A stretch of 64,000 bases of DNA from a virus: the IMG/VR virus record IMGVR_UViG_3300029250_000344. The stretch is one strand, 5' to 3'. Positions 22,011 through 57,700 of the stretch are shown in pieces. Both the position numbers and the translations under genes were made by a program. Below the pieces are notes generated by a model, which did not search any database, had not been told where the DNA came from, and worked only from the letters and a program-made list of their open reading frames with translations. Position 1 is the stretch's first letter; each line of letters begins with the position of its first letter.

Positions 22011-22205
22011 CTGAGAAGACGGCACGTTGCTAAACAGTATATCACATAAAGTTTTCAACGCTACCGCTATACCGAACGTTATGTGTGGTAATCCAAAGAA
22101 GTCTGCCAACCATATATTCCAAAGCAAGCATATTACACCTGCCCAAATGGCATATGCTGCTACGGCTACTAAAGAGGCTACTGCTAAAGCTTTTATTTTG
22201 TCCAT
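21996..22205 (-). CDS. small membrane protein (2 TM)
   Basis: 69-aa hydrophobic ORF. Confidence 0.45.
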   Translation of the reverse strand: MDKIKALAVASLVAVAAYAIWAGVICLLWNIWLADFFGLPHITFGIAVALKTLCDILFSNVPSSQSDTK

Positions 22206-22360
22206 ATCATTATACCATAAGCCGTTATGAATAGCGTCAACAGCACAGCCAGTATGATTATGTGTGACTTAAACTGCCGAATCGTGAATGGCGGATATGC
22301 GTCCATAATGATAATCTCCGCCATCAATATACCGGCCAACACTGCAAACGCTATCTTCAT
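22193..22360 (-). CDS. small membrane ORF (55 aa)
   Basis: Below the track cutoff. 2 TM. Its stop overlaps the start of the downstream 69-aa ORF. Confidence 0.3.
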   Translation of the reverse strand: MKIAFAVLAGILMAEIIIMDAYPPFTIRQFKSHIIILAVLLTLFITAYGIMIWTK

Positions 22361-34939: not shown

Positions 34940-35293
34940 CTAACTCAGCCAGATTTCACGCTTGATTGCATTCTGAACGGCTTCTTGCTGCTCTGTTCTG
35001 GGTGTAAATTCGCTGGTTGTCGGGCGAAAAGTCTCCACGTCAAACAGAACACAGTCCCACGTTTCCACTTGGTATTTCACCTTTGGCGGGCGCACCAGCA
35101 CATAGTACGGTTTGAACGGGCCATTGCCGAACATATCCGTGGCCAGCATCATCGCCCTGTTTATTACCCGCATGAGCGCCTTATCTTCTCCGAAATACTT
35201 CAGCATCTCCGGGTCGAAGTAGTGCCCGTCAGGGTTGTGACGATAATACTCAGCTATAAACGACTCTAATGAATCAAACGGCACATCCGTCAT
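34940..35293 (-). CDS. hypothetical protein
   Basis: ORF. Confidence 0.4.
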   Translation of the reverse strand: MTDVPFDSLESFIAEYYRHNPDGHYFDPEMLKYFGEDKALMRVINRAMMLATDMFGNGPFKPYYVLVRPPKVKYQVETWDCVLFDVETFRPTTSEFTPRTEQQEAVQNAIKREIWLS

Positions 35294-35544
35294 AGAATTT
35301 CCTCCAACAGGCTTACGGCCTCATTCAGTGAGCTTATGCCATCATCTATATTAGATACAGCATCCTCCATGGTGTCCACAGCCGTTTCCATATTCTCATA
35401 TATTTCCGTTCCCTGTAAATTCTCAGGATAGTTGCACATAGAATCTTCTTCTTCGTCCTTAACTTGATTTACTATATCCAGCGCTGTTTCTATAATCTCA
35501 ATAGCCCTGCGCAATTCTTTCCTACGTTTGTTATTCATTAGCAA
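35290..35544 (-). CDS. hypothetical acidic protein
   Basis: ORF. Confidence 0.4.
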   Translation of the reverse strand: MLMNNKRRKELRRAIEIIETALDIVNQVKDEEEDSMCNYPENLQGTEIYENMETAVDTMEDAVSNIDDGISSLNEAVSLLEEIL

Positions 35545-35837
35545 CTCCTCATATCAGATATAACAGTCGGCTCGAACCCATCCTCTTGTTCCCAGAATCT
35601 TTCCACAGATAGGTCTGCCATCGCGGCAACACGACCAAGGCATTTCCCATAACGTTCAGCAACGTCCATTGTGGCATAGTGTGCATCACTAAAATAATTG
35701 TCTTGATTAGATGTACTGGCTCCGTCTTCGCGTGTTCTGTATACAGCGTTTTCCCTGTCCACCTCCAATAGTACAACCCTGTCTCCGTCATTCACCTGTA
35801 ATATAATCTCATATACGTTTTCCATAAACTTTAACAT
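35538..35837 (-). CDS. hypothetical protein
   Basis: ORF. Confidence 0.4.
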   Translation of the reverse strand: MLKFMENVYEIILQVNDGDRVVLLEVDRENAVYRTREDGASTSNQDNYFSDAHYATMDVAERYGKCLGRVAAMADLSVERFWEQEDGFEPTVISDMRSC

Positions 35838-35863
35838 ACCTTTCCTTTTTATTATTATTTAGC

Positions 35864-35890
35864 ACAAAAAAGAGGGCGGAATCCGCCCCT
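35864..35890 (-). terminator. intrinsic terminator on minus strand
   Basis: GGGCGG-AAT-CCGCCC stem followed by a T-run on the minus strand. Confidence 0.55.
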
Positions 35891-35894
35891 TCAA

Positions 35895-35972
35895 TCAATT
35901 CGACAGCAACGTCAGTATGACGATTACAATTATCCATGCAATTAATCGTTTGGGATAGAATTCAAAATACAT
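35895..35972 (-). CDS. 25-aa hydrophobic peptide MYFEFYPKRLIAWIIVIVILTLLSN (copy A)
   Basis: RBS AGGAGGG with an 8-nt spacer. A paralog at 39785-39862 differs almost only by synonymous changes. Confidence 0.55.
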   Translation of the reverse strand: MYFEFYPKRLIAWIIVIVILTLLSN

Positions 35973-36150
35973 TTCCAACACCCTCCTATTTGCATTACAG
36001 AAGCCTGAGCTCCGTTTATTTATTAGCATTGTACCATATTGTTTACAATTTGTATAGATATCCCTTTATTTTTCATGCGTTGAAGTTGCACAAAATGTGC
36101 CATAACTCTCATATTTTTACATTTATAAACGCATATTCTGGTTTTGTGTG

Positions 36151-36384
36151 TTAAAACCACCTTTCCCATTCTCTCCGGCGTTCCTTTCTGCGCCACACGC
36201 CGCGCTTGCTGCCCTTCACTGGGTCGAAGCCGACTATGCACAGCCGCAACTGTTTGCTTATTGATACCGTGCCGCGCACTCCGTCCCACTGCACGATTAT
36301 CTCTCCGGTGTTTCGCACATGACCCACAATCGTGCCGGTGCGTGTGCTGTCGTCTGCTAATGCAATTCGTGTGCCTTGATACAT
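36151..36384 (-). CDS. hypothetical small protein
   Basis: RBS GGGAGGAG. The overlapping Arg-rich ORF 36023..36406 is judged spurious. Confidence 0.35.
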   Translation of the reverse strand: MYQGTRIALADDSTRTGTIVGHVRNTGEIIVQWDGVRGTVSISKQLRLCIVGFDPVKGSKRGVWRRKERRREWERWF

Positions 36385-36439
36385 AATTCGCTCCTCCCTG
36401 CAACATATAAAAAGAACCGCTATCTGCGGTTCCTAATCC

Positions 36440-36899: not shown

Positions 36900-37733
36900 T
36901 TAATCCTCCCCTAATTCATCCCGTAATGCCTGCGCAAAAGCCCAATCATAGTCCTTTGCCGACAGGTTACATATCTCTTTGATTTCCTCTGCCTCGATAC
37001 CTATGTAGCAAAGCGTTATGGCCTCGTTGCTGTGCCCCAATTCCTTACAGAGCATAGACAGCGCCCTATACCCACGTTCCCGACTCAGATGCTGTGCCTG
37101 CGTGTAGAAGCGATATGCATATGTTTTGCGCATAGTGTGGCTGCCGTACAACAGCGGATTCCACCCCAGCCGTTCTGCCGCCGGAACGATTATGTTGTCG
37201 TTGAGCGTTTTGCGGGTCAGGCATCCGCCCTTCTGTGAGCCGAACAGGAAATCTTCGCTTGCCAGATGCATATCATCCGTGTACTGGGCGACCATCGCCG
37301 CCACCTCGTCGCTTATCTTCAGCTCCCTGCCCTTGCCGGTTTTCTGCTCGATGACATACACCGTATCCTTCGGGCTGCCGTCCTTGCCAATGAACTGCCC
37401 GGCCTTGAGCTGCACCAAATCCCCGCCGCGCAAGCCAACGTTACACCCAAGCCGGAACAGAACCAAATTTCTGTACGCGAGACGCCTGCGCTTAGTGTCC
37501 TGCAAAGCGTGTTCCATGGCGGTTATCTCGGCCATTGTTTTGAGCGGAACCTTTGTGTGCTTAGTCAGCGGCGCGTACTGTTGCTTGGTGCTGCGCAACT
37601 GTGGTCTTAACGCTTTGCCGCAATGTGAGCAGAAATTCGCCGTGCCCTCATTTTCCTCCCCGCACTTGGTGCAGATGAGTATGTACGGCGTTTCCACCAC
37701 TCGCGGCTTGAATTGTAATAAGTTACTTGGCAT
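36900..37733 (-). CDS. tyrosine recombinase (phage integrase family) with N-terminal zinc ribbon
   Basis: CTKCGEEN...CSHCG ribbon. R...HTMRKTYAYR...LGHSN...Y catalytic residues. Confidence 0.75.
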   Translation of the reverse strand: MPSNLLQFKPRVVETPYILICTKCGEENEGTANFCSHCGKALRPQLRSTKQQYAPLTKHTKVPLKTMAEITAMEHALQDTKRRRLAYRNLVLFRLGCNVGLRGGDLVQLKAGQFIGKDGSPKDTVYVIEQKTGKGRELKISDEVAAMVAQYTDDMHLASEDFLFGSQKGGCLTRKTLNDNIIVPAAERLGWNPLLYGSHTMRKTYAYRFYTQAQHLSRERGYRALSMLCKELGHSNEAITLCYIGIEAEEIKEICNLSAKDYDWAFAQALRDELGED

Positions 37734-38771: not shown

Positions 38772-39152
38772 TTAGTGTTCCTCCATCCATTTCTCGGCAA
38801 TTTTAGCCGCCTCGTCGTAGGAATCGGCTTCGCCTATCGAACACCCGCTACTCCACATATTGTCTTCCAAATAACATTCGGCAATTATCCGTCCTGCATC
38901 ATCGCCGTATATCTCTCTTATACTGTCTGTCATATAGCCATATGGTTCAAGGCAATTCTCGATGTCTTCTTCGCTCAAGTCGTCCATATTTGCTGAGACA
39001 TGGCATATCACATACTCATGTTCTCCAGCCGCCCTGTCCTTCTCAGTAAGGTTTACACATGTCATCTGCACCATTTCATATTCGTTATTACCGTTATCAC
39101 GCATCCACTGGCCATCATCAGTTTCAATCCAGCCTTTACACTCTATATTCAT
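38772..39152 (-). CDS. hypothetical acidic protein
   Basis: ORF. Confidence 0.4.
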   Translation of the reverse strand: MNIECKGWIETDDGQWMRDNGNNEYEMVQMTCVNLTEKDRAAGEHEYVICHVSANMDDLSEEDIENCLEPYGYMTDSIREIYGDDAGRIIAECYLEDNMWSSGCSIGEADSYDEAAKIAEKWMEEH

Positions 39153-39526
39153 TGGGTATCCTCCACTATTTCAACTATATTCAGCAATTTGCCCGGTTCT
39201 ATACTGAAGCACCGCGCTATCTGAGCTTTATAAGCTATGTTGTCATCATCCCCGTCCCATTCCTCATCAATATCACTGGTGTCCTCACCTATTCGTTTGA
39301 AGCTATATTCAGCCAGATTGCGATAAAAGGCGGTAATGAACTGTATCTCTTCGTAATCGTCGTACCACTTAACCCACTCCCAATAAAAGGTGACATATTC
39401 ATCTTGGTCTACAACGTGCGCTATACACATAAATGGCCGCACCGCATTACTTTCTTTTGCCTGCTTTATTAGTTCCAGAGCATCCTCCTTGCGCAATGTT
39501 AGCGCCACATCACTACGATACCCCAT
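39149..39526 (-). CDS. hypothetical acidic protein
   Basis: ORF. Confidence 0.4.
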   Translation of the reverse strand: MGYRSDVALTLRKEDALELIKQAKESNAVRPFMCIAHVVDQDEYVTFYWEWVKWYDDYEEIQFITAFYRNLAEYSFKRIGEDTSDIDEEWDGDDDNIAYKAQIARCFSIEPGKLLNIVEIVEDTQ

Positions 39527-39539
39527 TATTCTTCCTCCT

Positions 39540-39770
39540 CTATTTCTTCAAACATGTCGTATATATATGCTCTGTGGTGATGATGTCTCTTGTGCCATCA
39601 TCACCCCATATTTCCATCCAATCATATGGTTCATCACTGGCATCTCTCAAGTCATCGCTTCGCAGTAAGTCCCGGCAAAACAATGCCTCTGCCTGTATCT
39701 CCTGAAGCGTACCGGATTGCCATTTATCATGTCTGTCTTGATCTTTGTTGTATGCCATTAAGTGAAACAT
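39540..39770 (-). CDS. hypothetical protein (trimmed to the internal Met)
   Basis: Track ORF 39540..39827 overlaps peptide copy B. The internal start has an RBS GAGGAG. Confidence 0.35.
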   Translation of the reverse strand: MFHLMAYNKDQDRHDKWQSGTLQEIQAEALFCRDLLRSDDLRDASDEPYDWMEIWGDDGTRDIITTEHIYTTCLKK

Positions 39771-39784
39771 TGCTTTCTTTCTCC

Positions 39785-39862
39785 TCAGTTCGATAAGAAC
39801 GTCAATATCACGATAACGATAATCCATGCTATCAGTCGTTTGGGATAGAATTCAAAATACAT
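39785..39862 (-). CDS. 25-aa hydrophobic peptide MYFEFYPKRLIAWIIVIVILTFLSN (copy B)
   Basis: RBS GAGGAGG. 9 of 10 nucleotide differences from copy A are synonymous. Confidence 0.55.
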   Translation of the reverse strand: MYFEFYPKRLIAWIIVIVILTFLSN

Positions 39863-39995
39863 AGTTATACCTCCTCAGATGCCACCAGAGCCTCAAATAG
39901 CCCCTCTGCGGCGTTTTTATTATTTTGTAGATAGATTGGTTGTGTAAGATACAGAATTGCTCATAACGTGTATTTGGAGCCGATATAAGAATTGC

Positions 39996-40124
39996 TTATT
40001 TCTGTAGCTCCCACACATGCAGCTCCTGCCATGTCATCACCAGCCAGCCGCCGCAAACCCTGACAATGGGTTCATTGCCGTGACAGGCTTCTTCCGCTTC
40101 CTTGCGGGTATCGTACTGTGTCAT
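39996..40124 (-). CDS. small ORF (42 aa)
   Basis: Its start overlaps the stop of the upstream gene (ATGA). Below the track cutoff. Confidence 0.3.
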   Translation of the reverse strand: MTQYDTRKEAEEACHGNEPIVRVCGGWLVMTWQELHVWELQK

Positions 40125-46358: not shown

Positions 46359-46475
46359 TTACATAGCTGAGATGAGCACGAATATTATATACCATGTGAC
46401 GATTAAAAAGACGATTCCTGCCGTTTGCACCGCGTACCACGCCCCGCTGTACGGTCTGAGCTTATAGCGTTTCAT
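46359..46475 (-). CDS. small membrane ORF (38 aa)
   Basis: RBS AAGGAG. Lies just after a terminator hairpin. Confidence 0.35.
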   Translation of the reverse strand: MKRYKLRPYSGAWYAVQTAGIVFLIVTWYIIFVLISAM

Positions 46476-53069: not shown

Positions 53070-54182
53070 GTGGAATATTCCTACAAGTTTCGTTTGTATC
53101 CTACCGCTGTGCAGAGAGCGCAAATATCCCGGAATTTTGGTTGCTTCCGGTATGTGTTTAACCACTTTCTCGCCCAAAGGCAGGAGCAGTATAAAGAAAC
53201 AGGAACATCTCCTACGCGGTTCCAGCAAGACAAAATCCTCACGATACTCAAACAAGAATTGCCGTGGTTGAAGGAAGCGGATTCCACGTCATTGCAGGCA
53301 ACCCTTCAAGACTTGGACATGGCCTATCAGAACTTCTTCCGTCGTGTAAAGCAGGGTGAGAAGCCCGGCTATCCCCGATTCAAGAGCAAGAGAGCCCATC
53401 GGCAGAGCTACAAGAGCAAGTGCGTAGGGACAAATATCAAAGTATTAGAAGGTGCTGTACAGCTCCCCAAACTGGGAAAGGTAAAATGCCGGATAAGCAA
53501 GCCCGTAGAGGGGCGTATTCTATCTGCAACCGTCAGCCAGACTCCAAGCGGAAAATATTTTGTAGCCCTGTGCTGTACAGATATTGATATGGAGCCGCTG
53601 CCATCTACAGGGGCGGTGGTCGGCATCGACATGGGGCTGAAAGCATTTGCAATCACCTCCGACGGCGTTTCATACCAAAACCACAAGTATCTTGCGAAGT
53701 CCGAAAAGAAGCTTGCGAAACTTCAACGGCAACTCTCCCGAAAATCAAAGGGGAGTAACCGCTGGGAGAAGGCAAGATTGCAGGTAGCGCGGCTTCACGA
53801 ACACATTACTAACCAGCGGCATGATATGCTCCACAAACTATCCACCGACCTTGTACGGAACTATGATTTGATTGCGATTGAGGATCTGGCTTCGTCTAAC
53901 ATGGTGAAAACCCACAAGCTTGCGAAAGCAATCTCTGATGCAGGTTGGGGCGAGTTCCGGCGGCAGTTGCAGTACAAGGCAGCATGGTACGGAAAGGAGG
54001 TGGTTGCGATAGACCGCTTTTACCCCTCCAGCCAGCTTTGCTCCGCTTGCGGCGCTCAGTGGTCGGGCACGAAAGACCTGTCCGTGCGCGAATGGACTTG
54101 CCCACAATGCGGCGCACAGCATGATAGGGACATAAACGCTGCGAAGAACATTTTGAACGAGGGATTACGCCTGTTGGCGTAA
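53070..54182 (+). CDS. tnpB: TnpB RNA-guided nuclease
   Basis: RuvC D (GIDMG), E (AIEDL), zinc finger CSACG...CPQCG, C-terminal [10 protein letters not shown]. Confidence 0.85.
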
Positions 54183-54344: not shown

Positions 54345-55058
54345 ATGGCCTATTTGAAGCTTGAGGCCGTAGCCAGAGGGTTGGGTTTTACAGACAACAG
54401 TAAGGGTGTAGAGTATGTGCGTTGGAACACCGTTAAACAGTATTTGGCCGATATTGGCTTTTCGCAGGAAGTTGCGAAAACAGACTACATCCCCGAGAAC
54501 GTATTCTATCGCCTTGCTATGAAGGCCAAGAATGAGACTGCGGAAAGGTTTCAGGCATTAGTGGCTGACGAAATAATACCCACCATCCGTAAGACTGGCG
54601 GCTATGTGCAGGCTGGCCGTGAAGAAGAATTCATCGAGAGGTACTTCCCCGCTTTCTCGGACGAGACCAAGCTTACTATGGTTAAGGATTTGAGGACGCA
54701 GGTGCTGGCATTGAAGGCCGACAACGCCAAACAGCAGGCACAACTGGCCGAGCAGCAACCCAAGGTCGAGTTTGCCGACCATGTGGCCGATTCCAAGACA
54801 CTGCTCACTGTGTCCGCCTTTGCCAAGATAGTGCAGAACGAGGATATTAAGCTGGGGCGCAATAAGCTGATGGCGTGGCTAAGAGATCGTGGTTATCTGC
54901 GTGCTAATAACGAGCCGTATCAGCAGTATATTAAACAGGGGCTGTTTCAGGTGCGTGAGGTGTATGTGAATGGTATGGTTCACCCTGTCACCTTCATCAC
55001 TGGTAAGGGCCAGCTCCATTTAGTTGGGAAGCTACGTGCCGAGTTTTGTGCGGCGTAA
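54345..55058 (+). CDS. antirepressor C-terminal region (Bro paralog remainder)
   Basis: Aligns with residues about 40-249 of the 55344 paralog (IPENVFYRLA..., EFADHVADSK..., GYLRANNEPYQQY). Confidence 0.55.
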   Translation: MAYLKLEAVARGLGFTDNSKGVEYVRWNTVKQYLADIGFSQEVAKTDYIPENVFYRLAMKAKNETAERFQALVADEIIPTIRKTGGYVQAGREEEFIERYFPAFSDETKLTMVKDLRTQVLALKADNAKQQAQLAEQQPKVEFADHVADSKTLLTVSAFAKIVQNEDIKLGRNKLMAWLRDRGYLRANNEPYQQYIKQGLFQVREVYVNGMVHPVTFITGKGQLHLVGKLRAEFCAA

Positions 55059-55076
55059 CAGGAGGATGCAGTATAT

Positions 55077-55280
55077 ATGGAAAACGAACTTTTGAGAATT
55101 GACTACACTAATGTAGACAGGCCAACTGTGCTTGGTCGGGACTTGCACGAGGCTCTGGAGGTACAAACGGCATATAAAGATTGGTTCCCACGCATGTGTG
55201 AATATGGATTTGAAGAAGGTAAGGACTATTGCTCAAAAATGAGCAATAGGGTTGATGGGCTTGGTTTTACTCAGATTTGA
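55077..55280 (+). CDS. hypothetical protein
   Basis: ORF. Confidence 0.35.
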   Translation: MENELLRIDYTNVDRPTVLGRDLHEALEVQTAYKDWFPRMCEYGFEEGKDYCSKMSNRVDGLGFTQI

Positions 55281-55343
55281 GTAAAATAAGATGCTTGTCG
55301 CAATACGTGTGTTGTTGAAATAGTCTAATAGGGGATAGTTTAT

Positions 55344-56093
55344 ATGAACGGAATACAGGTCTATAAGAACGAACAGTTTGGTGAGGTAAGAATGGTGGTT
55401 GAGGGAGATAAGGTACTATTCTGTGCTAAAGATGTAGCCGCTGCTCTTGGGTACAAAGATACAGTTAATGCAATCAAGCAACACTGTCGGTGGGTGGTGA
55501 AACGCCATCTACCTCATCCACAGTCTAAAGATAAGACTGTGGAGATGTCTTTTCTGCCGGAAGGAGATGTGTATCGGCTTGTTGCTCACAGCAAACTCCC
55601 TACATCTGAGCAATTTGAGAAGTGGGTGTTTGATGAAGTCATACCTACCATTCATAGACATGGCGTGTATATGACCCCCGCTAAAATAGAGGAGGTACTG
55701 CTTAATCCCGACACCATTATCAGTCTTGCTACCCAGCTTAAAGCGGAGCGAGAAAAGAGCCAAGCGCTACTTGCCGAAAACAGCGCCATGAAACCCAAGG
55801 CCGAGTTCGCTGACCGCGTGGCTAATACGGATGGCCTGCTGTCTATGTCCAACTTCGCTAAAGTAATACAAGACGAACATATAAATATGGGGCGTAACAA
55901 GCTATTTGAGTGGCTACGTAGTCAGGGCTATTTGCGGGGTAATAACGAACCATACCAGCAGTATGTCAATCAGGGGTTGTTTAGGGTGCGCGAAACAGTA
56001 CATAACGGCGGCCTGCGCACTCAGACCTATGTAACCGGTAAGGGTCAGCTCTATTTGGTAGAAAAGCTTAAGACTGAGTTCTGTGTGGCGTAG
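55344..56093 (+). CDS. Bro-N domain antirepressor
   Basis: NEQFGEVRMVVEGDKVLFCAKDVAAALGY Bro-N, then an antirepressor-type C-terminal domain. Confidence 0.65.
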   Translation: MNGIQVYKNEQFGEVRMVVEGDKVLFCAKDVAAALGYKDTVNAIKQHCRWVVKRHLPHPQSKDKTVEMSFLPEGDVYRLVAHSKLPTSEQFEKWVFDEVIPTIHRHGVYMTPAKIEEVLLNPDTIISLATQLKAEREKSQALLAENSAMKPKAEFADRVANTDGLLSMSNFAKVIQDEHINMGRNKLFEWLRSQGYLRGNNEPYQQYVNQGLFRVRETVHNGGLRTQTYVTGKGQLYLVEKLKTEFCVA

Positions 56094-56166
56094 GGGGGGT
56101 CGTGAAACGCGACGGGGTCTTTCCCACTTGTGGAGACGGCAATATCTTATAAAGGAGGTGAGCAGG

Positions 56167-56409
56167 GTGACTATAAAATTAACCGAGAGTCAGCGAGATA
56201 GCCTAATAGACTTCATCGAGTGCAACTTCTATCCGAACATTCAGAACGACGACAGCATAGACAGCATTGACTACGCTATAGACCTTTTGAATGTATATAC
56301 GCGGTTGCGGAGCGCGGCCAAACATCGGCGGCGCACGGAGGCTCTGGGGTATTCTGAGGCCGCGAAAAGGCTTGTGGCCGAAGGCAAGGGTAGACTATCA
56401 AAAGATTAA
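56167..56409 (+). CDS. hypothetical protein (GTG start after RBS AAGGAGGTG)
   Basis: Track ORF 56083..56409 trimmed. Confidence 0.35.
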   Translation: MTIKLTESQRDSLIDFIECNFYPNIQNDDSIDSIDYAIDLLNVYTRLRSAAKHRRRTEALGYSEAAKRLVAEGKGRLSKD

Positions 56410-56420
56410 AGGAGGAGTGT

Positions 56421-56852
56421 ATGAAGGAAATTGTAGGACAGAATATCGAAAAGGCGTGTCAGGCGCTTGGGGTTAATGCGGTGCTGGAAGGCCACGCCGA
56501 TTTCGGGTGGTACGGGGTTTGCGATGTGTATCAGGTTGACGATGAGGATTATAGACGTCTATGCGATGTCAAGGATGAGGACTGGCCGGATGATTGGGGC
56601 TGGTGGCGGCATGGTCATTGCATCTATGATAAGCAGAACGTACCGCTCGTGGTGTACGTCGTGAATGGTCACACTATGGCGGGGTACTACAGACGGGACA
56701 AGGACGAGAAGCCTTATAAGAATTTTATTAGTTGGTGTCGCTGGGCGATGGACATAAGCTCGCTTAGGAACATCATCTACTTTGCCACCTCGCTTGCCGA
56801 GCATAACGGCATGACGCTGGTTGAGTTCATGCGTACATTCCAAGGCGTGTAA
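56421..56852 (+). CDS. hypothetical protein
   Basis: ORF with RBS AAAGGAGGAG. Confidence 0.45.
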   Translation: MKEIVGQNIEKACQALGVNAVLEGHADFGWYGVCDVYQVDDEDYRRLCDVKDEDWPDDWGWWRHGHCIYDKQNVPLVVYVVNGHTMAGYYRRDKDEKPYKNFISWCRWAMDISSLRNIIYFATSLAEHNGMTLVEFMRTFQGV

Positions 56853-56926
56853 CGAAACGTGATGCATAGGCGCAGACGGTGGAACAGAACGTTCCGTGGT
56901 CTGATAATAAATATGGAGGATAAATA

Positions 56927-57700
56927 ATGGATCAGCAAGTGAAAGTATTCAACAATGAGCAATTTGGTAGTGTGCGTATTATCGAGGAGGATGGTAGGGT
57001 TCTATTTTGTGGCGTTGATGTAGCGAAGGCGCTGGGTTATACCAATCCCAGAAAAGCAGTACGTGACCATACAAAGGGAGGAACGTTTCGTTCCACCCCC
57101 ACGGCAGGTGGAATGCAAGATATGTCATTCATCCCGGAAGGCGACGTGTACCGGCTTATCACCCACAGCAAGCTGCCCTCCGCAGAGCGCTTTGAGCATT
57201 GGGTGTTCGATGAGGTGTTGCCCACACTGCGGCAGACAGGCAGTTATGTGCTCCAGCGCCCAGATAGCTACATGATAGACGATCCGATAGAGCGAGCCAA
57301 ACGATGGATTGAGGAGGCACAAGAGAAACTTGCTCTACAGGCCAAAGTGGAGGCCGATGCGCCCAAGGTTCTATTTGCTGATGCGGTTGCCACATCAAAG
57401 GACAGTTGTCTTGTTGGCCAGCTTGCCAAGGTGCTGCGCCAGAATGGTTACAATATCGGCCAGAACCGTCTGTTTGACTATCTGCGCAACGAGGGATATC
57501 TGTGCAAGAGCGGCGAGAACCGTAACATGCCGACACAGCGCAGCATAGATGCAGGCTGGTTTGAGGTAAAAGAAGGCACGCTGTATAACTTTGATGGTAC
57601 TGTGCGAATAACGCGCACGCCCAAAGTAACAGACAAGGGTCAAATATACTTCGTCAACAAATTCTTAAAGGAGGCCAAAGGTGCAATATCATGTAGGTGA
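56927..57700 (+). CDS. Bro-N domain antirepressor
   Basis: NEQFGSVRIIEEDGRVLFCGVDVAKALGY. Confidence 0.65.
   Translation: MDQQVKVFNNEQFGSVRIIEEDGRVLFCGVDVAKALGYTNPRKAVRDHTKGGTFRSTPTAGGMQDMSFIPEGDVYRLITHSKLPSAERFEHWVFDEVLPTLRQTGSYVLQRPDSYMIDDPIERAKRWIEEAQEKLALQAKVEADAPKVLFADAVATSKDSCLVGQLAKVLRQNGYNIGQNRLFDYLRNEGYLCKSGENRNMPTQRSIDAGWFEVKEGTLYNFDGTVRITRTPKVTDKGQIYFVNKFLKEAKGAISCR

What the first reader, a model, noticed from the sequence alone, without database searches (positions are those of the whole stretch)
35895..35972. Duplicated 25-aa hydrophobic peptide gene under purifying selection (second copy at 39785-39862)
Two roughly 75-bp segments, 85% identical, each encode MYFEFYPKRLIAWIIVIVILT(L/F)LSN behind a strong Shine-Dalgarno. 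Nine of the ten nucleotide differences are synonymous in this frame, whereas the alternative frame changes almost every residue. Copy A ends at a terminator. The stop of copy B overlaps the RBS of the next gene. This is probably a single-pass membrane micro-protein, perhaps holin-like, toxin-like or a membrane modulator. It sits below the cutoff of the ORF track.
Basis: seen in the sequence. Interest (0 to 1): 0.55.

Follow-up and report, generated by a model that had tools for sequence, protein, structure and literature searches.

The report
Conserved 25-residue phage membrane micro-protein, two copies
A large temperate gut phage carries two copies of a tiny gene for a 25-amino-acid hydrophobic peptide. 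The peptide is kept almost unchanged while the DNA around it diverges, so it is almost certainly a real membrane micro-protein, but its job is unknown and no known family matches it.

Summary
Both ORFs lie on the minus strand (35972..35895 and 39862..39785). They differ at 12 of 78 bases, not 10, and 11 of those differences are synonymous (dN/dS about 0.01, dS saturated). Clear similarity starts at the ATG and ends at the TGA.

I found 54 copies in related human-gut phage contigs and one Christensenellaceae MAG. They fall into 23 DNA haplotypes with 21 variable sites, none at codon position 2. Only conservative amino-acid variants occur (L22F, V18I, I11V). Over the same loci the next gene ranges from 59 to 97% identity or is replaced outright.

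Copy B is the constant head (promoter-like site, 5' hairpin, SD, ORF) of a shuffled operon of small acidic proteins. Copy A is a roughly 285-bp AT-rich cassette with a promoter-like site, the ORF and a terminator. It is present in 7 of 21 related genomes that span the site and absent without a scar in 11 others, which makes it a classic moron.

The peptide has an aromatic N-terminus followed by KR, a 14-residue hydrophobic core and a C-terminal SN, which predicts a single-pass N-in topology. Pfam, NCBIfam, PADLOC, PDB and Rfam give no match, PHROGs only a weak non-significant one (E 0.13), and nothing turns up outside this phage clade.

The type I toxin, holin and leader-peptide readings each fail the tests I could run. 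The best reading is a trans-acting membrane micro-protein with a specific partner. It is a new member of a known kind and of moderate interest.

The parts
35895..35972 (-). Copy A ORF, 25 aa, MYFEFYPKRLIAWIIVIVILTLLSN*
   Evidence: The same peptide occurs in 7 A-context loci.
35981..35987 (-). Shine-Dalgarno of copy A (AGGAGGG, 9 nt before the ATG)
   Evidence: Read. Invariant in 5 distinct A-context sequences.
36028..36056 (-). Promoter-like site for copy A (TATACA-17-TACAAT, with a TG extended -10)
   Evidence: consensus match only. The -10 region is conserved in related loci. The ATG of the 44-aa GenBank annotation lies inside this -10 box.
35863..35889 (-). Intrinsic terminator directly after copy A (GGGGCGGATTCCGCCCT plus a T-run)
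   Evidence: Conserved in all A-context loci.
39785..39862 (-). Copy B ORF, 25 aa, MYFEFYPKRLIAWIIVIVILTFLSN*
   Evidence: Found in 47 B-context copies in related contigs.
39870..39876 (-). Shine-Dalgarno of copy B (GAGGAGG, 7 nt before the ATG)
   Evidence: Read. Near-invariant in 24 distinct 5'UTRs.
39919..39946 (-). Promoter-like site for copy B (TACACA-16-AATAAT)
   Evidence: consensus match only. Nucleotide diversity is 0.12 here, against 0.29 further upstream.
39881..39912 (-). Conserved hairpin at the predicted 5' end of the copy B mRNA
   Evidence: Variants keep pairing through G-U/A-U changes. The fold is not better than shuffles (z = -0.9).
39781..39787 (-). Junction where the stop TGA of copy B overlaps the SD (GAGGAG) of the next gene
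   Evidence: The junction is kept even where the downstream gene is a different gene.
39540..39770 (-). 76-aa acidic protein gene, the first variable gene of the operon headed by copy B
   Evidence: 59-97% aa identity in related loci, and replaced by other genes in L022 and L025. No family match.
36151..36384 (-). 77-aa gene flanking cassette A upstream. This is the real gene here, not the 127-aa ORF 36023-36406.
   Evidence: SD GGGAGGAG. Homologues found.
35538..35837 (-). 99-aa gene after the terminator, a second insertion relative to L008-type genomes
35290..35544 (-). 84-aa gene flanking cassette A downstream. It sits 74-75 nt from the 77-aa gene homologue in genomes without the cassette.

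Best explanation
Both ORFs are translated genes for one 25-residue micro-protein of a large temperate phage of gut Clostridia. The peptide is probably released from the ribosome whole and inserts into the cytoplasmic membrane afterwards as a single short helix. Its aromatic and basic N-terminus (MYFEFYPKR) would sit at the cytoplasmic face, L10-L23 would span the bilayer, and SN would face out.

It acts in trans as a protein, most likely by sequence-specific helix-helix contact with a membrane partner, host or phage. Generic membrane damage is the less likely mode. It is made from two units. Copy B is the first cistron of an early operon whose downstream genes are shuffled between relatives. 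Copy A is a stand-alone moron-type cassette with a promoter-like site, the ORF and a terminator.

The most plausible role is modification of the host envelope in the phage's favour, for example exclusion of superinfecting phages, as for the small inner-membrane moron protein HK97 gp15.

Shown: coding status, strong purifying selection, cassette anatomy, variable presence of copy A, restriction to one phage clade. Inferred: translation in vivo, membrane insertion and topology, promoter activity, partner binding, biological role.

My sub-confidences are: real translated gene 0.9; membrane-inserted 0.8; specific partner rather than generic toxin 0.45; superinfection-exclusion-type role 0.2.
For: Coding and selection:
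- 11 of 12 A-versus-B differences are synonymous. dS is 1.65, dN 0.018 and omega 0.011.
- 54 copies give 23 haplotypes with 21 variable sites: 16 at codon position 3, 5 at position 1, 0 at position 2. Nineteen are synonymous, P = 5e-11.
- Diversity at codon positions 1/2/3 is 0.043/0.000/0.179, against 0.28/0.15/0.32 in the next gene.
- Two strong SDs in otherwise dissimilar flanks sit at good spacing.
- Clear similarity is confined to ATG..TGA.

Stronger constraint than neighbours:
- The adjacent gene is 59-97% identical or replaced.
- Another small TM ORF of the same genomes varies from 79 to 100%.
- The only amino-acid variants are I11V, V18I and L22F.

Membrane character:
- L10-L23 has a Kyte-Doolittle mean of 3.31 and a Wimley-White octanol energy of -12.9 kcal/mol, with KR on the N-terminal side.

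Trans action:
- Copy A is followed directly by a terminator and has no gene to regulate.

Moron anatomy:
- The cassette is present in 7 of 21 genomes spanning the site. In 11 of the others only a 74-75 nt spacer separates the flanking genes.
- Cassette GC is 35%, against 46% for the window.
- The definition of a moron and the gp15 precedent come from PMC3594210.

Against generic toxicity:
[quoted passage not shown] Here nearly every residue is fixed.
Against: - There is no experimental evidence of translation, membrane location or any phenotype.
- The hydrophobic core is only 14-16 residues, which is short for a bilayer.
- All copies come from one closely related phage clade (87-97% nt identity in the flanks), so the phylogenetic depth is modest. 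Recombination between the copies (L025, L022, L028) could spread one allele.
- Promoter-like hits in this region occur at the chance rate (13 found, 12.1 expected).
- No partner is identified.
- The superinfection-exclusion idea rests on analogy only.
- A shared motif upstream of both copies (found post hoc) hints that the two promoters may be related. That weakens any 'two expression regimes' argument.
Confidence: 0.5

Rival explanations
1. Membrane-damaging peptide. It could be a type I toxin-like addiction or abortive module of a phage(-plasmid), or a holin- or antiholin-like depolariser. In this reading it acts by generic disruption of the membrane, and its synthesis is held in check by an RNA or by timing.
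For: - The size and hydrophobicity fit IbsC (19 aa) and ShoB (26 aa) (PMC8309996).
- Copy A is a small stand-alone transcription unit.
- The phage carries ParB-like genes, and its nearest characterised relatives include a C. difficile phage-plasmid. Type I TA modules stabilise C. difficile prophages (PMC7699646, listed).
- In the MFE fold of the copy A mRNA the SD pairs with the 3' terminator arm.
Against: - No conserved antisense promoter. The only plus-strand candidate (35831-35858) lies in sequence absent from L008-type cassettes, and there is none opposite copy B.
- No complementary sequence elsewhere in the 64 kb and no Rfam hit.
- The mRNAs are not unusually structured (z = +0.76 for B, -1.7 for A) and the SDs are strong and open.
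- Copy B is translationally coupled as the first cistron of a long operon.
- There is no cationic C-terminus.
- No endolysin is nearby.
- No match to the Pfam or NCBIfam toxin and holin families.
- Near-total residue conservation is atypical for type I toxins.
Confidence: 0.2
2. Cis-acting leader ORF. In this reading the main role of copy B is to load ribosomes and couple translation (or sense something through the nascent chain) for the variable operon behind it. The peptide itself would be a by-product.
For: - The stop codon overlaps the next SD, and this junction is kept whichever gene follows.
- The promoter-like site, the 5'UTR and the ORF form one conserved block between variable flanks.
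Against: - Copy A has the same peptide but is followed at once by a terminator, with no downstream cistron.
- Coupling alone does not need a fixed amino-acid sequence, yet omega is about 0.01.
- No alternative-structure attenuator is visible.
- A hydrophobic helix is not typical of known arrest peptides (own knowledge).
- Coupling may still be a secondary benefit at locus B.
Confidence: 0.1
3. Not a gene. In this reading the 78-bp block is conserved at the nucleotide level, as a recombination linker between modules or as an RNA element.
For: - It sits at mosaic boundaries.
- Haplotypes have been exchanged between the two loci.
Against: - Variation is strictly three-periodic, with zero diversity at codon position 2 and most at position 3.
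- 19 of 21 variable sites are silent in this frame only.
- Two strong SDs are present.
- No Rfam match.
Confidence: 0.02

Closest known systems
Phage morons encoding small inner-membrane proteins, e.g. HK97 gp15 (superinfection exclusion)
   Same: Copy A sits between two genes that are adjacent in related phages. It has its own promoter-like site and terminator, and a lower GC content than its surroundings. Its product is a small predicted membrane protein of a temperate phage (PMC3594210).
   Different: There is no sequence relationship and the peptide is much shorter. A second copy heads an operon rather than standing alone. Expression from the prophage and any exclusion phenotype are untested.
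Type I toxins of about the same size (IbsC 19 aa, ShoB 26 aa, Fst 33 aa, BsrG 38 aa, C. difficile prophage toxins)
   Same: A very small peptide that is mostly one hydrophobic helix, encoded on a mobile element in a short transcription unit.
   Different: No antisense or complementary RNA was found. The SD is open and strong, the mRNA is unstructured, and the peptide is co-translated with an operon. The charge sits at the N-terminal side of the helix rather than the C-terminal side. The sequence is almost invariant. No family match.
Small transmembrane protein families of the human gut microbiome and its phages (Sberro et al., bioRxiv 10.1101/494179; later phage small-gene catalogues)
   Same: Below gene-caller cut-offs, detected by comparative genomics, found in the human gut, with a single predicted TM helix. 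In that study 28% of 4,539 small families were predicted to be transmembrane, some as short as 24-40 aa.
   Different: I could not check whether this exact family is in those catalogues. The peptide sequence occurs in no paper text I could search. In the protein databases it appears only as an over-extended 44-aa 'hypothetical protein'.
Small membrane regulators that bind a larger membrane protein (SidA 29 aa, KdpF 29 aa, MgrB, AcrZ, MgtS; viral BPV E5 and designed 26-aa 'traptamers') - from own knowledge
   Same: A one-helix peptide of 25-50 residues whose activity depends on specific helix packing. That would explain why nearly every residue is fixed.
   Different: The resemblance is functional only. 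No homology exists, no partner is known, and nothing was tested here.

Membership tests
Type I toxin-antitoxin system | Small (<60 aa) hydrophobic peptide with a predicted TM helix | tested here: met
   25 aa. L10-L23 has a KD mean of 3.31.
Type I toxin-antitoxin system | Antisense RNA antitoxin, cis-encoded (overlapping) or trans-encoded | tested here: not met
   No conserved plus-strand promoter opposite either copy. No complementary stretch longer than 13 nt in the window. No Rfam hit. A transcript map would be needed to exclude it fully.
Type I toxin-antitoxin system | Toxin mRNA structured so that the SD is sequestered or translation is restrained | tested here: not met
   The copy B mRNA has z = +0.76 against shuffles and the copy A mRNA has z = -1.7. 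The SDs are canonical.
Type I toxin-antitoxin system | Growth arrest or membrane depolarisation on over-expression | not testable with these tools
   Needs an expression experiment.
Holin | Encoded next to an endolysin in a lysis cassette, with a charged C-terminal tail, usually 60-150 aa | tested here: not met
   The neighbours have no lysin domain. The C-terminus is SN. The length is 25 aa. No Pfam or PHROG holin match.
Phage moron (copy A only) | Extra DNA between genes that are adjacent in related phages | tested here: met
   7 of 21 genomes carry the cassette. Another 11 have only 74-75 nt between the same two genes.
Phage moron (copy A only) | Own promoter and own terminator, with a composition unlike the neighbours | tested here: met
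   The terminator is clear. The promoter is a consensus match with a conserved extended -10. GC is 35% against 46%. Promoter activity is not shown.
Phage moron (copy A only) | Expressed from the repressed prophage and beneficial to the lysogen | not testable with these tools
   Needs lysogen transcriptomics and phenotyping.
Regulatory leader peptide / attenuator | A downstream cistron whose expression depends on translation of the leader, through alternative RNA structures or an arrest sequence | tested here: not met
   Copy A has no downstream cistron before its terminator. No alternative structure is seen at copy B. Stop/SD overlap exists at B only.
Any curated protein family (Pfam, NCBIfam, PHROGs, PADLOC, PDB) | Significant profile or sequence match | tested here: not met
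   No hits in Pfam, NCBIfam, PADLOC or PDB. PHROG 36371 matches only at E = 0.13.

The most novel reading that the evidence does not exclude
The peptide is a minimal viral 'transmembrane trap': a 25-residue helix that binds one specific host membrane protein (for example a DNA-entry, divisome, protease or transport component) and switches it off or on. The phage would deploy it both as the fixed first product of its early operon and, in some lineages, as a prophage-expressed moron. That would make it the smallest superinfection-exclusion or host-takeover factor described.
Probability: 0.25. Interest if true: 0.6.

Novelty: new member of a known kind. Interest (0 to 1): 0.38.

Why it matters
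Genes this short are skipped by gene callers. Copy B is unannotated, and copy A is in GenBank only as a wrongly extended 44-aa ORF.

Comparative data alone give near-proof of a functional 25-residue product. It also has an unusually clean natural experiment: two copies with largely dissimilar flanks, and presence/absence of the moron among close relatives.

If its partner could be found, it would add a very small, sequence-specific membrane effector to the list of phage tools. It is also small enough to be made synthetically. As it stands, it is a well-supported but functionally uncharacterised micro-protein of a common class.

Tried and rejected
- Plus-strand reading of the coordinates gives stops.
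- The 127-aa ORF 36023-36406 is not the upstream gene. The SD-preceded 77-aa ORF in another frame is the conserved one.
- The 44-aa extended form of copy A (GenBank DAE62673.1) is rejected. Its ATG lies in the predicted -10 box, it has no SD, similarity to copy B starts only at the inner ATG, and the upstream codons vary non-synonymously.
- Searches for homologues outside the clade all failed:
  - tblastn against 50,697 phages;
  - megablast of 16 kb against phages and plasmids;
  - four degenerate DNA patterns on IMG/VR, which returned the same 14 contigs, plus 5 chance hits for the fourth pattern;
  - GTDB genomes, giving 1 true and 2 chance hits;
  - 5.8 billion proteins, returning only two closely related 44-aa clusters of copy A itself (the window's own extended ORF and a 98%-identical variant);
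  - exhaustive HMMER over 1.84 billion representatives, returning only the query's own cluster;
  - synteny search with the downstream gene, giving the same 14 contigs.
- The look-up of encoding contigs for P0001 found nothing on record.
- The peptide sequence appears in no searchable paper text.
- The long-range SD-terminator pairing in the copy A mRNA is not significant and is not conserved beyond the trivial SD/pyrimidine complementarity.
- Homology between the genes following copy A and copy B: none seen.
- A 25-aa query was too short for the search for homologous proteins and for structure prediction.

Full report
**Observation**

Read on the plus strand, the two segments contain stops. 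On the minus strand each is a complete ORF.
- Copy A is 35972..35895 and encodes MYFEFYPKRLIAWIIVIVILTLLSN*.
- Copy B is 39862..39785 and encodes the same peptide with F at position 22.

The repeat finder returns exactly these 78-nt blocks at 85% identity. A flanked alignment shows that clear similarity begins at the ATG and ends at the TGA.

There are 12 differences, not the 10 reported. Nine are at codon position 3 and three are at position 1 of Leu codons. Eleven are synonymous and one gives L22F. None of 100,000 random placements of 12 substitutions gave one or fewer amino-acid changes. With 22% of possible changes being silent in this ORF, the binomial P is 6e-7. Nei-Gojobori counting gives dS 1.65 (saturated), dN 0.018 and omega 0.011. 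The other five frames change 4-11 residues, and four of the five carry stops.

**Where it sits**

The whole window is phage. It carries:
- a PolIII-alpha-type DNA polymerase, a primase-helicase, ribonucleotide reductase, an RNA ligase, methyltransferases and ParB-like proteins;
- a serine recombinase at the left end, three Bro-N/ANT antirepressors and a TnpB;
- three tRNAs.

There is no close DNA match in the phage or plasmid collections. By polymerase similarity (33-40% aa) the nearest characterised phages are the roughly 132-kb C. difficile phages LIBA6276, LIBA2945 and pCD1602_4. One related copy lies on a 369-kb contig of a Christensenellaceae MAG. All metagenome hits are human gut.

**Relatives**

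Degenerate DNA patterns built from the peptide found 14 IMG/VR contigs, 35 metagenome stretches and the MAG. Together with the window this makes 54 copies. Seven are in the A context and 47 in the B context, and none is in a third context.

The copies form 23 nucleotide haplotypes with 21 variable sites: 16 at codon position 3, 5 at position 1 and none at position 2. Nineteen are silent, P = 5e-11. The only amino-acid variants are L22F (in both contexts), V18I (once) and I11V (in a database member).

Nucleotide diversity among distinct B-context sequences is as follows.

| Region | Diversity |
|---|---|
| ORF, codon positions 1 / 2 / 3 | 0.043 / 0.000 / 0.179 |
| 5'UTR | 0.065 |
| Promoter region | 0.12 |
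| Further upstream | 0.29 |
| Next gene, codon positions 1 / 2 / 3 | 0.28 / 0.15 / 0.32 |

In the same loci the gene after copy B is only 59-97% identical, or is a different gene altogether. A second small TM ORF of these genomes (46475..46359) varies from 79 to 100%. The 25-mer is therefore the most constrained small ORF I could compare.

**Anatomy of the two units**

Copy B follows a 133-nt spacer that holds a promoter-like site (TACACA-16-AATAAT) and a conserved hairpin at the predicted 5' end of the mRNA. Its stop codon overlaps the SD of the next gene. This junction is kept in L022 and L025, where other genes follow. In L017 the sequence upstream of the -35 is also different. The conserved block therefore runs from the -35 to the next gene's SD. 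It heads a shuffled array of small acidic proteins of unknown function.

Copy A lies in a roughly 285-bp AT-rich stretch (GC 35%, against 46% for the window). That stretch holds an extended -10 promoter-like site (TATACA-17-TACAAT with TG), the SD, the ORF and a strong terminator. Of the 21 related genomes that span this site:
- 7 carry the cassette;
- 11 have only 74-75 nt between the same flanking genes, with no remnant;
- 3 have other arrangements.

This is the definition of a moron (PMC3594210). The window also has an extra 99-aa gene after the terminator.

L025 carries the A-type DNA haplotype at the B locus, and L022 and L028 have mixed haplotypes. The copies therefore recombine. The A-versus-B divergence probably reflects alleles of different phage lineages rather than an old duplication within this genome.

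**What the peptide looks like**

The GRAVY score is 1.34. L10-L23 has a Kyte-Doolittle mean of 3.31 and a Wimley-White octanol energy of -12.9 kcal/mol. K8 and R9 precede the core, and only S and N follow it.

By the positive-inside rule (established knowledge) this predicts an N-in, C-out single helix. At 25 residues the chain is probably finished before it leaves the ribosome tunnel, so insertion would be post-translational (inference).

**Mechanism and rivals**

A non-coding role is excluded by the three-periodic variation.

A pure leader-peptide role does not fit. Copy A has no downstream cistron, and coupling alone does not need a fixed sequence. Coupling may still be a side benefit at locus B.

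A type I toxin reading meets the size and hydrophobicity criterion but fails the others I could test:
- no conserved antisense promoter;
- no complementary sequence in 64 kb;
- no Rfam hit;
- mRNAs no more structured than shuffles, with open SDs;
- positive charge on the N-terminal rather than the C-terminal side of the helix;
- near-total residue conservation, where the type I toxin review reports poor conservation and few critical residues.

A holin reading fails on size, on the lack of a charged tail and on the lack of an adjacent lysin.

What remains is a trans-acting membrane micro-protein whose near-invariance suggests specific helix packing with a partner. The moron architecture of copy A and the HK97 gp15 precedent make an envelope-modifying role, such as superinfection exclusion, the most plausible guess. 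It is only a guess, which I put at about 0.2.

**Comparison with the known, and novelty**

There is no match in Pfam, NCBIfam, PADLOC or PDB, and PHROGs gives only E = 0.13. The 5.8-billion-protein search found only two closely related 44-aa clusters, both the extended form of copy A. One of them is named 'MAG TPA: hypothetical protein [Caudoviricetes sp.]', DAE62673.1. An exhaustive HMMER pass over 1.84 billion representatives found only the query's own cluster.

Small single-helix proteins are a large, known class in the gut microbiome: 28% of 4,539 small families. Morons encoding small membrane proteins are also known. This is therefore a new member of a known kind. It is very well supported as a gene, and its function is open.

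**Verdict**

Interest is moderate (0.38). It is a clean, experimentally tractable micro-protein candidate, but neither surprising in kind nor tied to a long-standing question.

Noticed in passing
window 46359-46475 (-): A second SD-preceded small TM ORF (38 aa, MKRYKLRPYSGAWYAVQTAGIVFLIVTWYIIFVLISAM) sits just upstream of the 441-aa amidoligase-like gene. It is conserved at 79-100% aa in 10 related loci, so it is probably another real micro-protein.
   Followed up: partly
window 22193-22306 (-): A third SD-preceded small TM ORF (37 aa, MDAYPPFTIRQFKSHIIILAVLLTLFITAYGIMIWTK) lies between the RNA ligase gene and the tRNA cluster. No related locus covers it.
   Followed up: no
window 39996-40124 (-): A 42-aa non-hydrophobic ORF (MTQYDTRKEAEEACHGNEPIVRVCGGWLVMTWQELHVWELQK) overlaps the stop of the 75-aa gene (ATGA). 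It is conserved at 81-100% in about 40 related loci, so it is likely a real small gene below the ORF cut-off.
   Followed up: partly
window 36019-36033 and 39916-39929 (-): The motif TACAA-N2-3-TAATAAA occurs only twice in the window, 46 and 53 nt upstream of the two peptide start codons. The pattern was derived post hoc. It may be residual promoter homology from the original duplication, or chance in AT-rich DNA.
   Followed up: partly
window 35895-36029 (-): GenBank (DAE62673.1) annotates copy A as a 44-aa protein starting at an ATG inside the predicted -10 box. That is probably an over-extension. Copy B is not annotated anywhere I could find.
   Followed up: yes
window 35946-35972 and 39836-39862: The first 27 nt of the two copies in this window are identical, and all 12 differences fall in the last 51 nt. 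Across relatives only three silent sites (15, 21, 27) vary in this part. This could be an initiation-region constraint, a codon degeneracy effect or a conversion tract.
   Followed up: no
window 38772-39770 (-) and loci L004, L017, L022, L025: The operon behind copy B is a shuffled set of small acidic proteins (76, 125, 126, 62, 57, 85-90 aa) whose order and presence differ between close relatives. L025 has a 427-aa HNH endonuclease inserted. No family matches. The composition is reminiscent of early anti-host or anti-defence gene arrays.
   Followed up: partly
window 53070-54182 (+); 54345-57700 (+): A TnpB/IS605 OrfB-type gene, followed by three paralogous Bro-N/ANT antirepressor genes in a row.
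   Followed up: no
window 36900-37733 (-): A 277-aa protein with an N-terminal zinc ribbon and a tyrosine-recombinase (Phage_integrase) domain lies in the middle of the early region. It is in addition to the serine recombinase at 1-1341.
   Followed up: no
L017 (MSGS01000031.1, 368,670 bp): A copy-B locus lies on a 369-kb contig of a Christensenellaceae MAG. This suggests an integrated prophage and a Christensenellaceae host. Only 8 kb was available, so integration was not verified.
   Followed up: no
P0005 (ENA, 792-nt contig): A 191-aa 'protein' begins with the extended copy A sequence and reads through the stop into what looks like non-coding translation. It is probably a sequencing or assembly artefact.
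   Followed up: no
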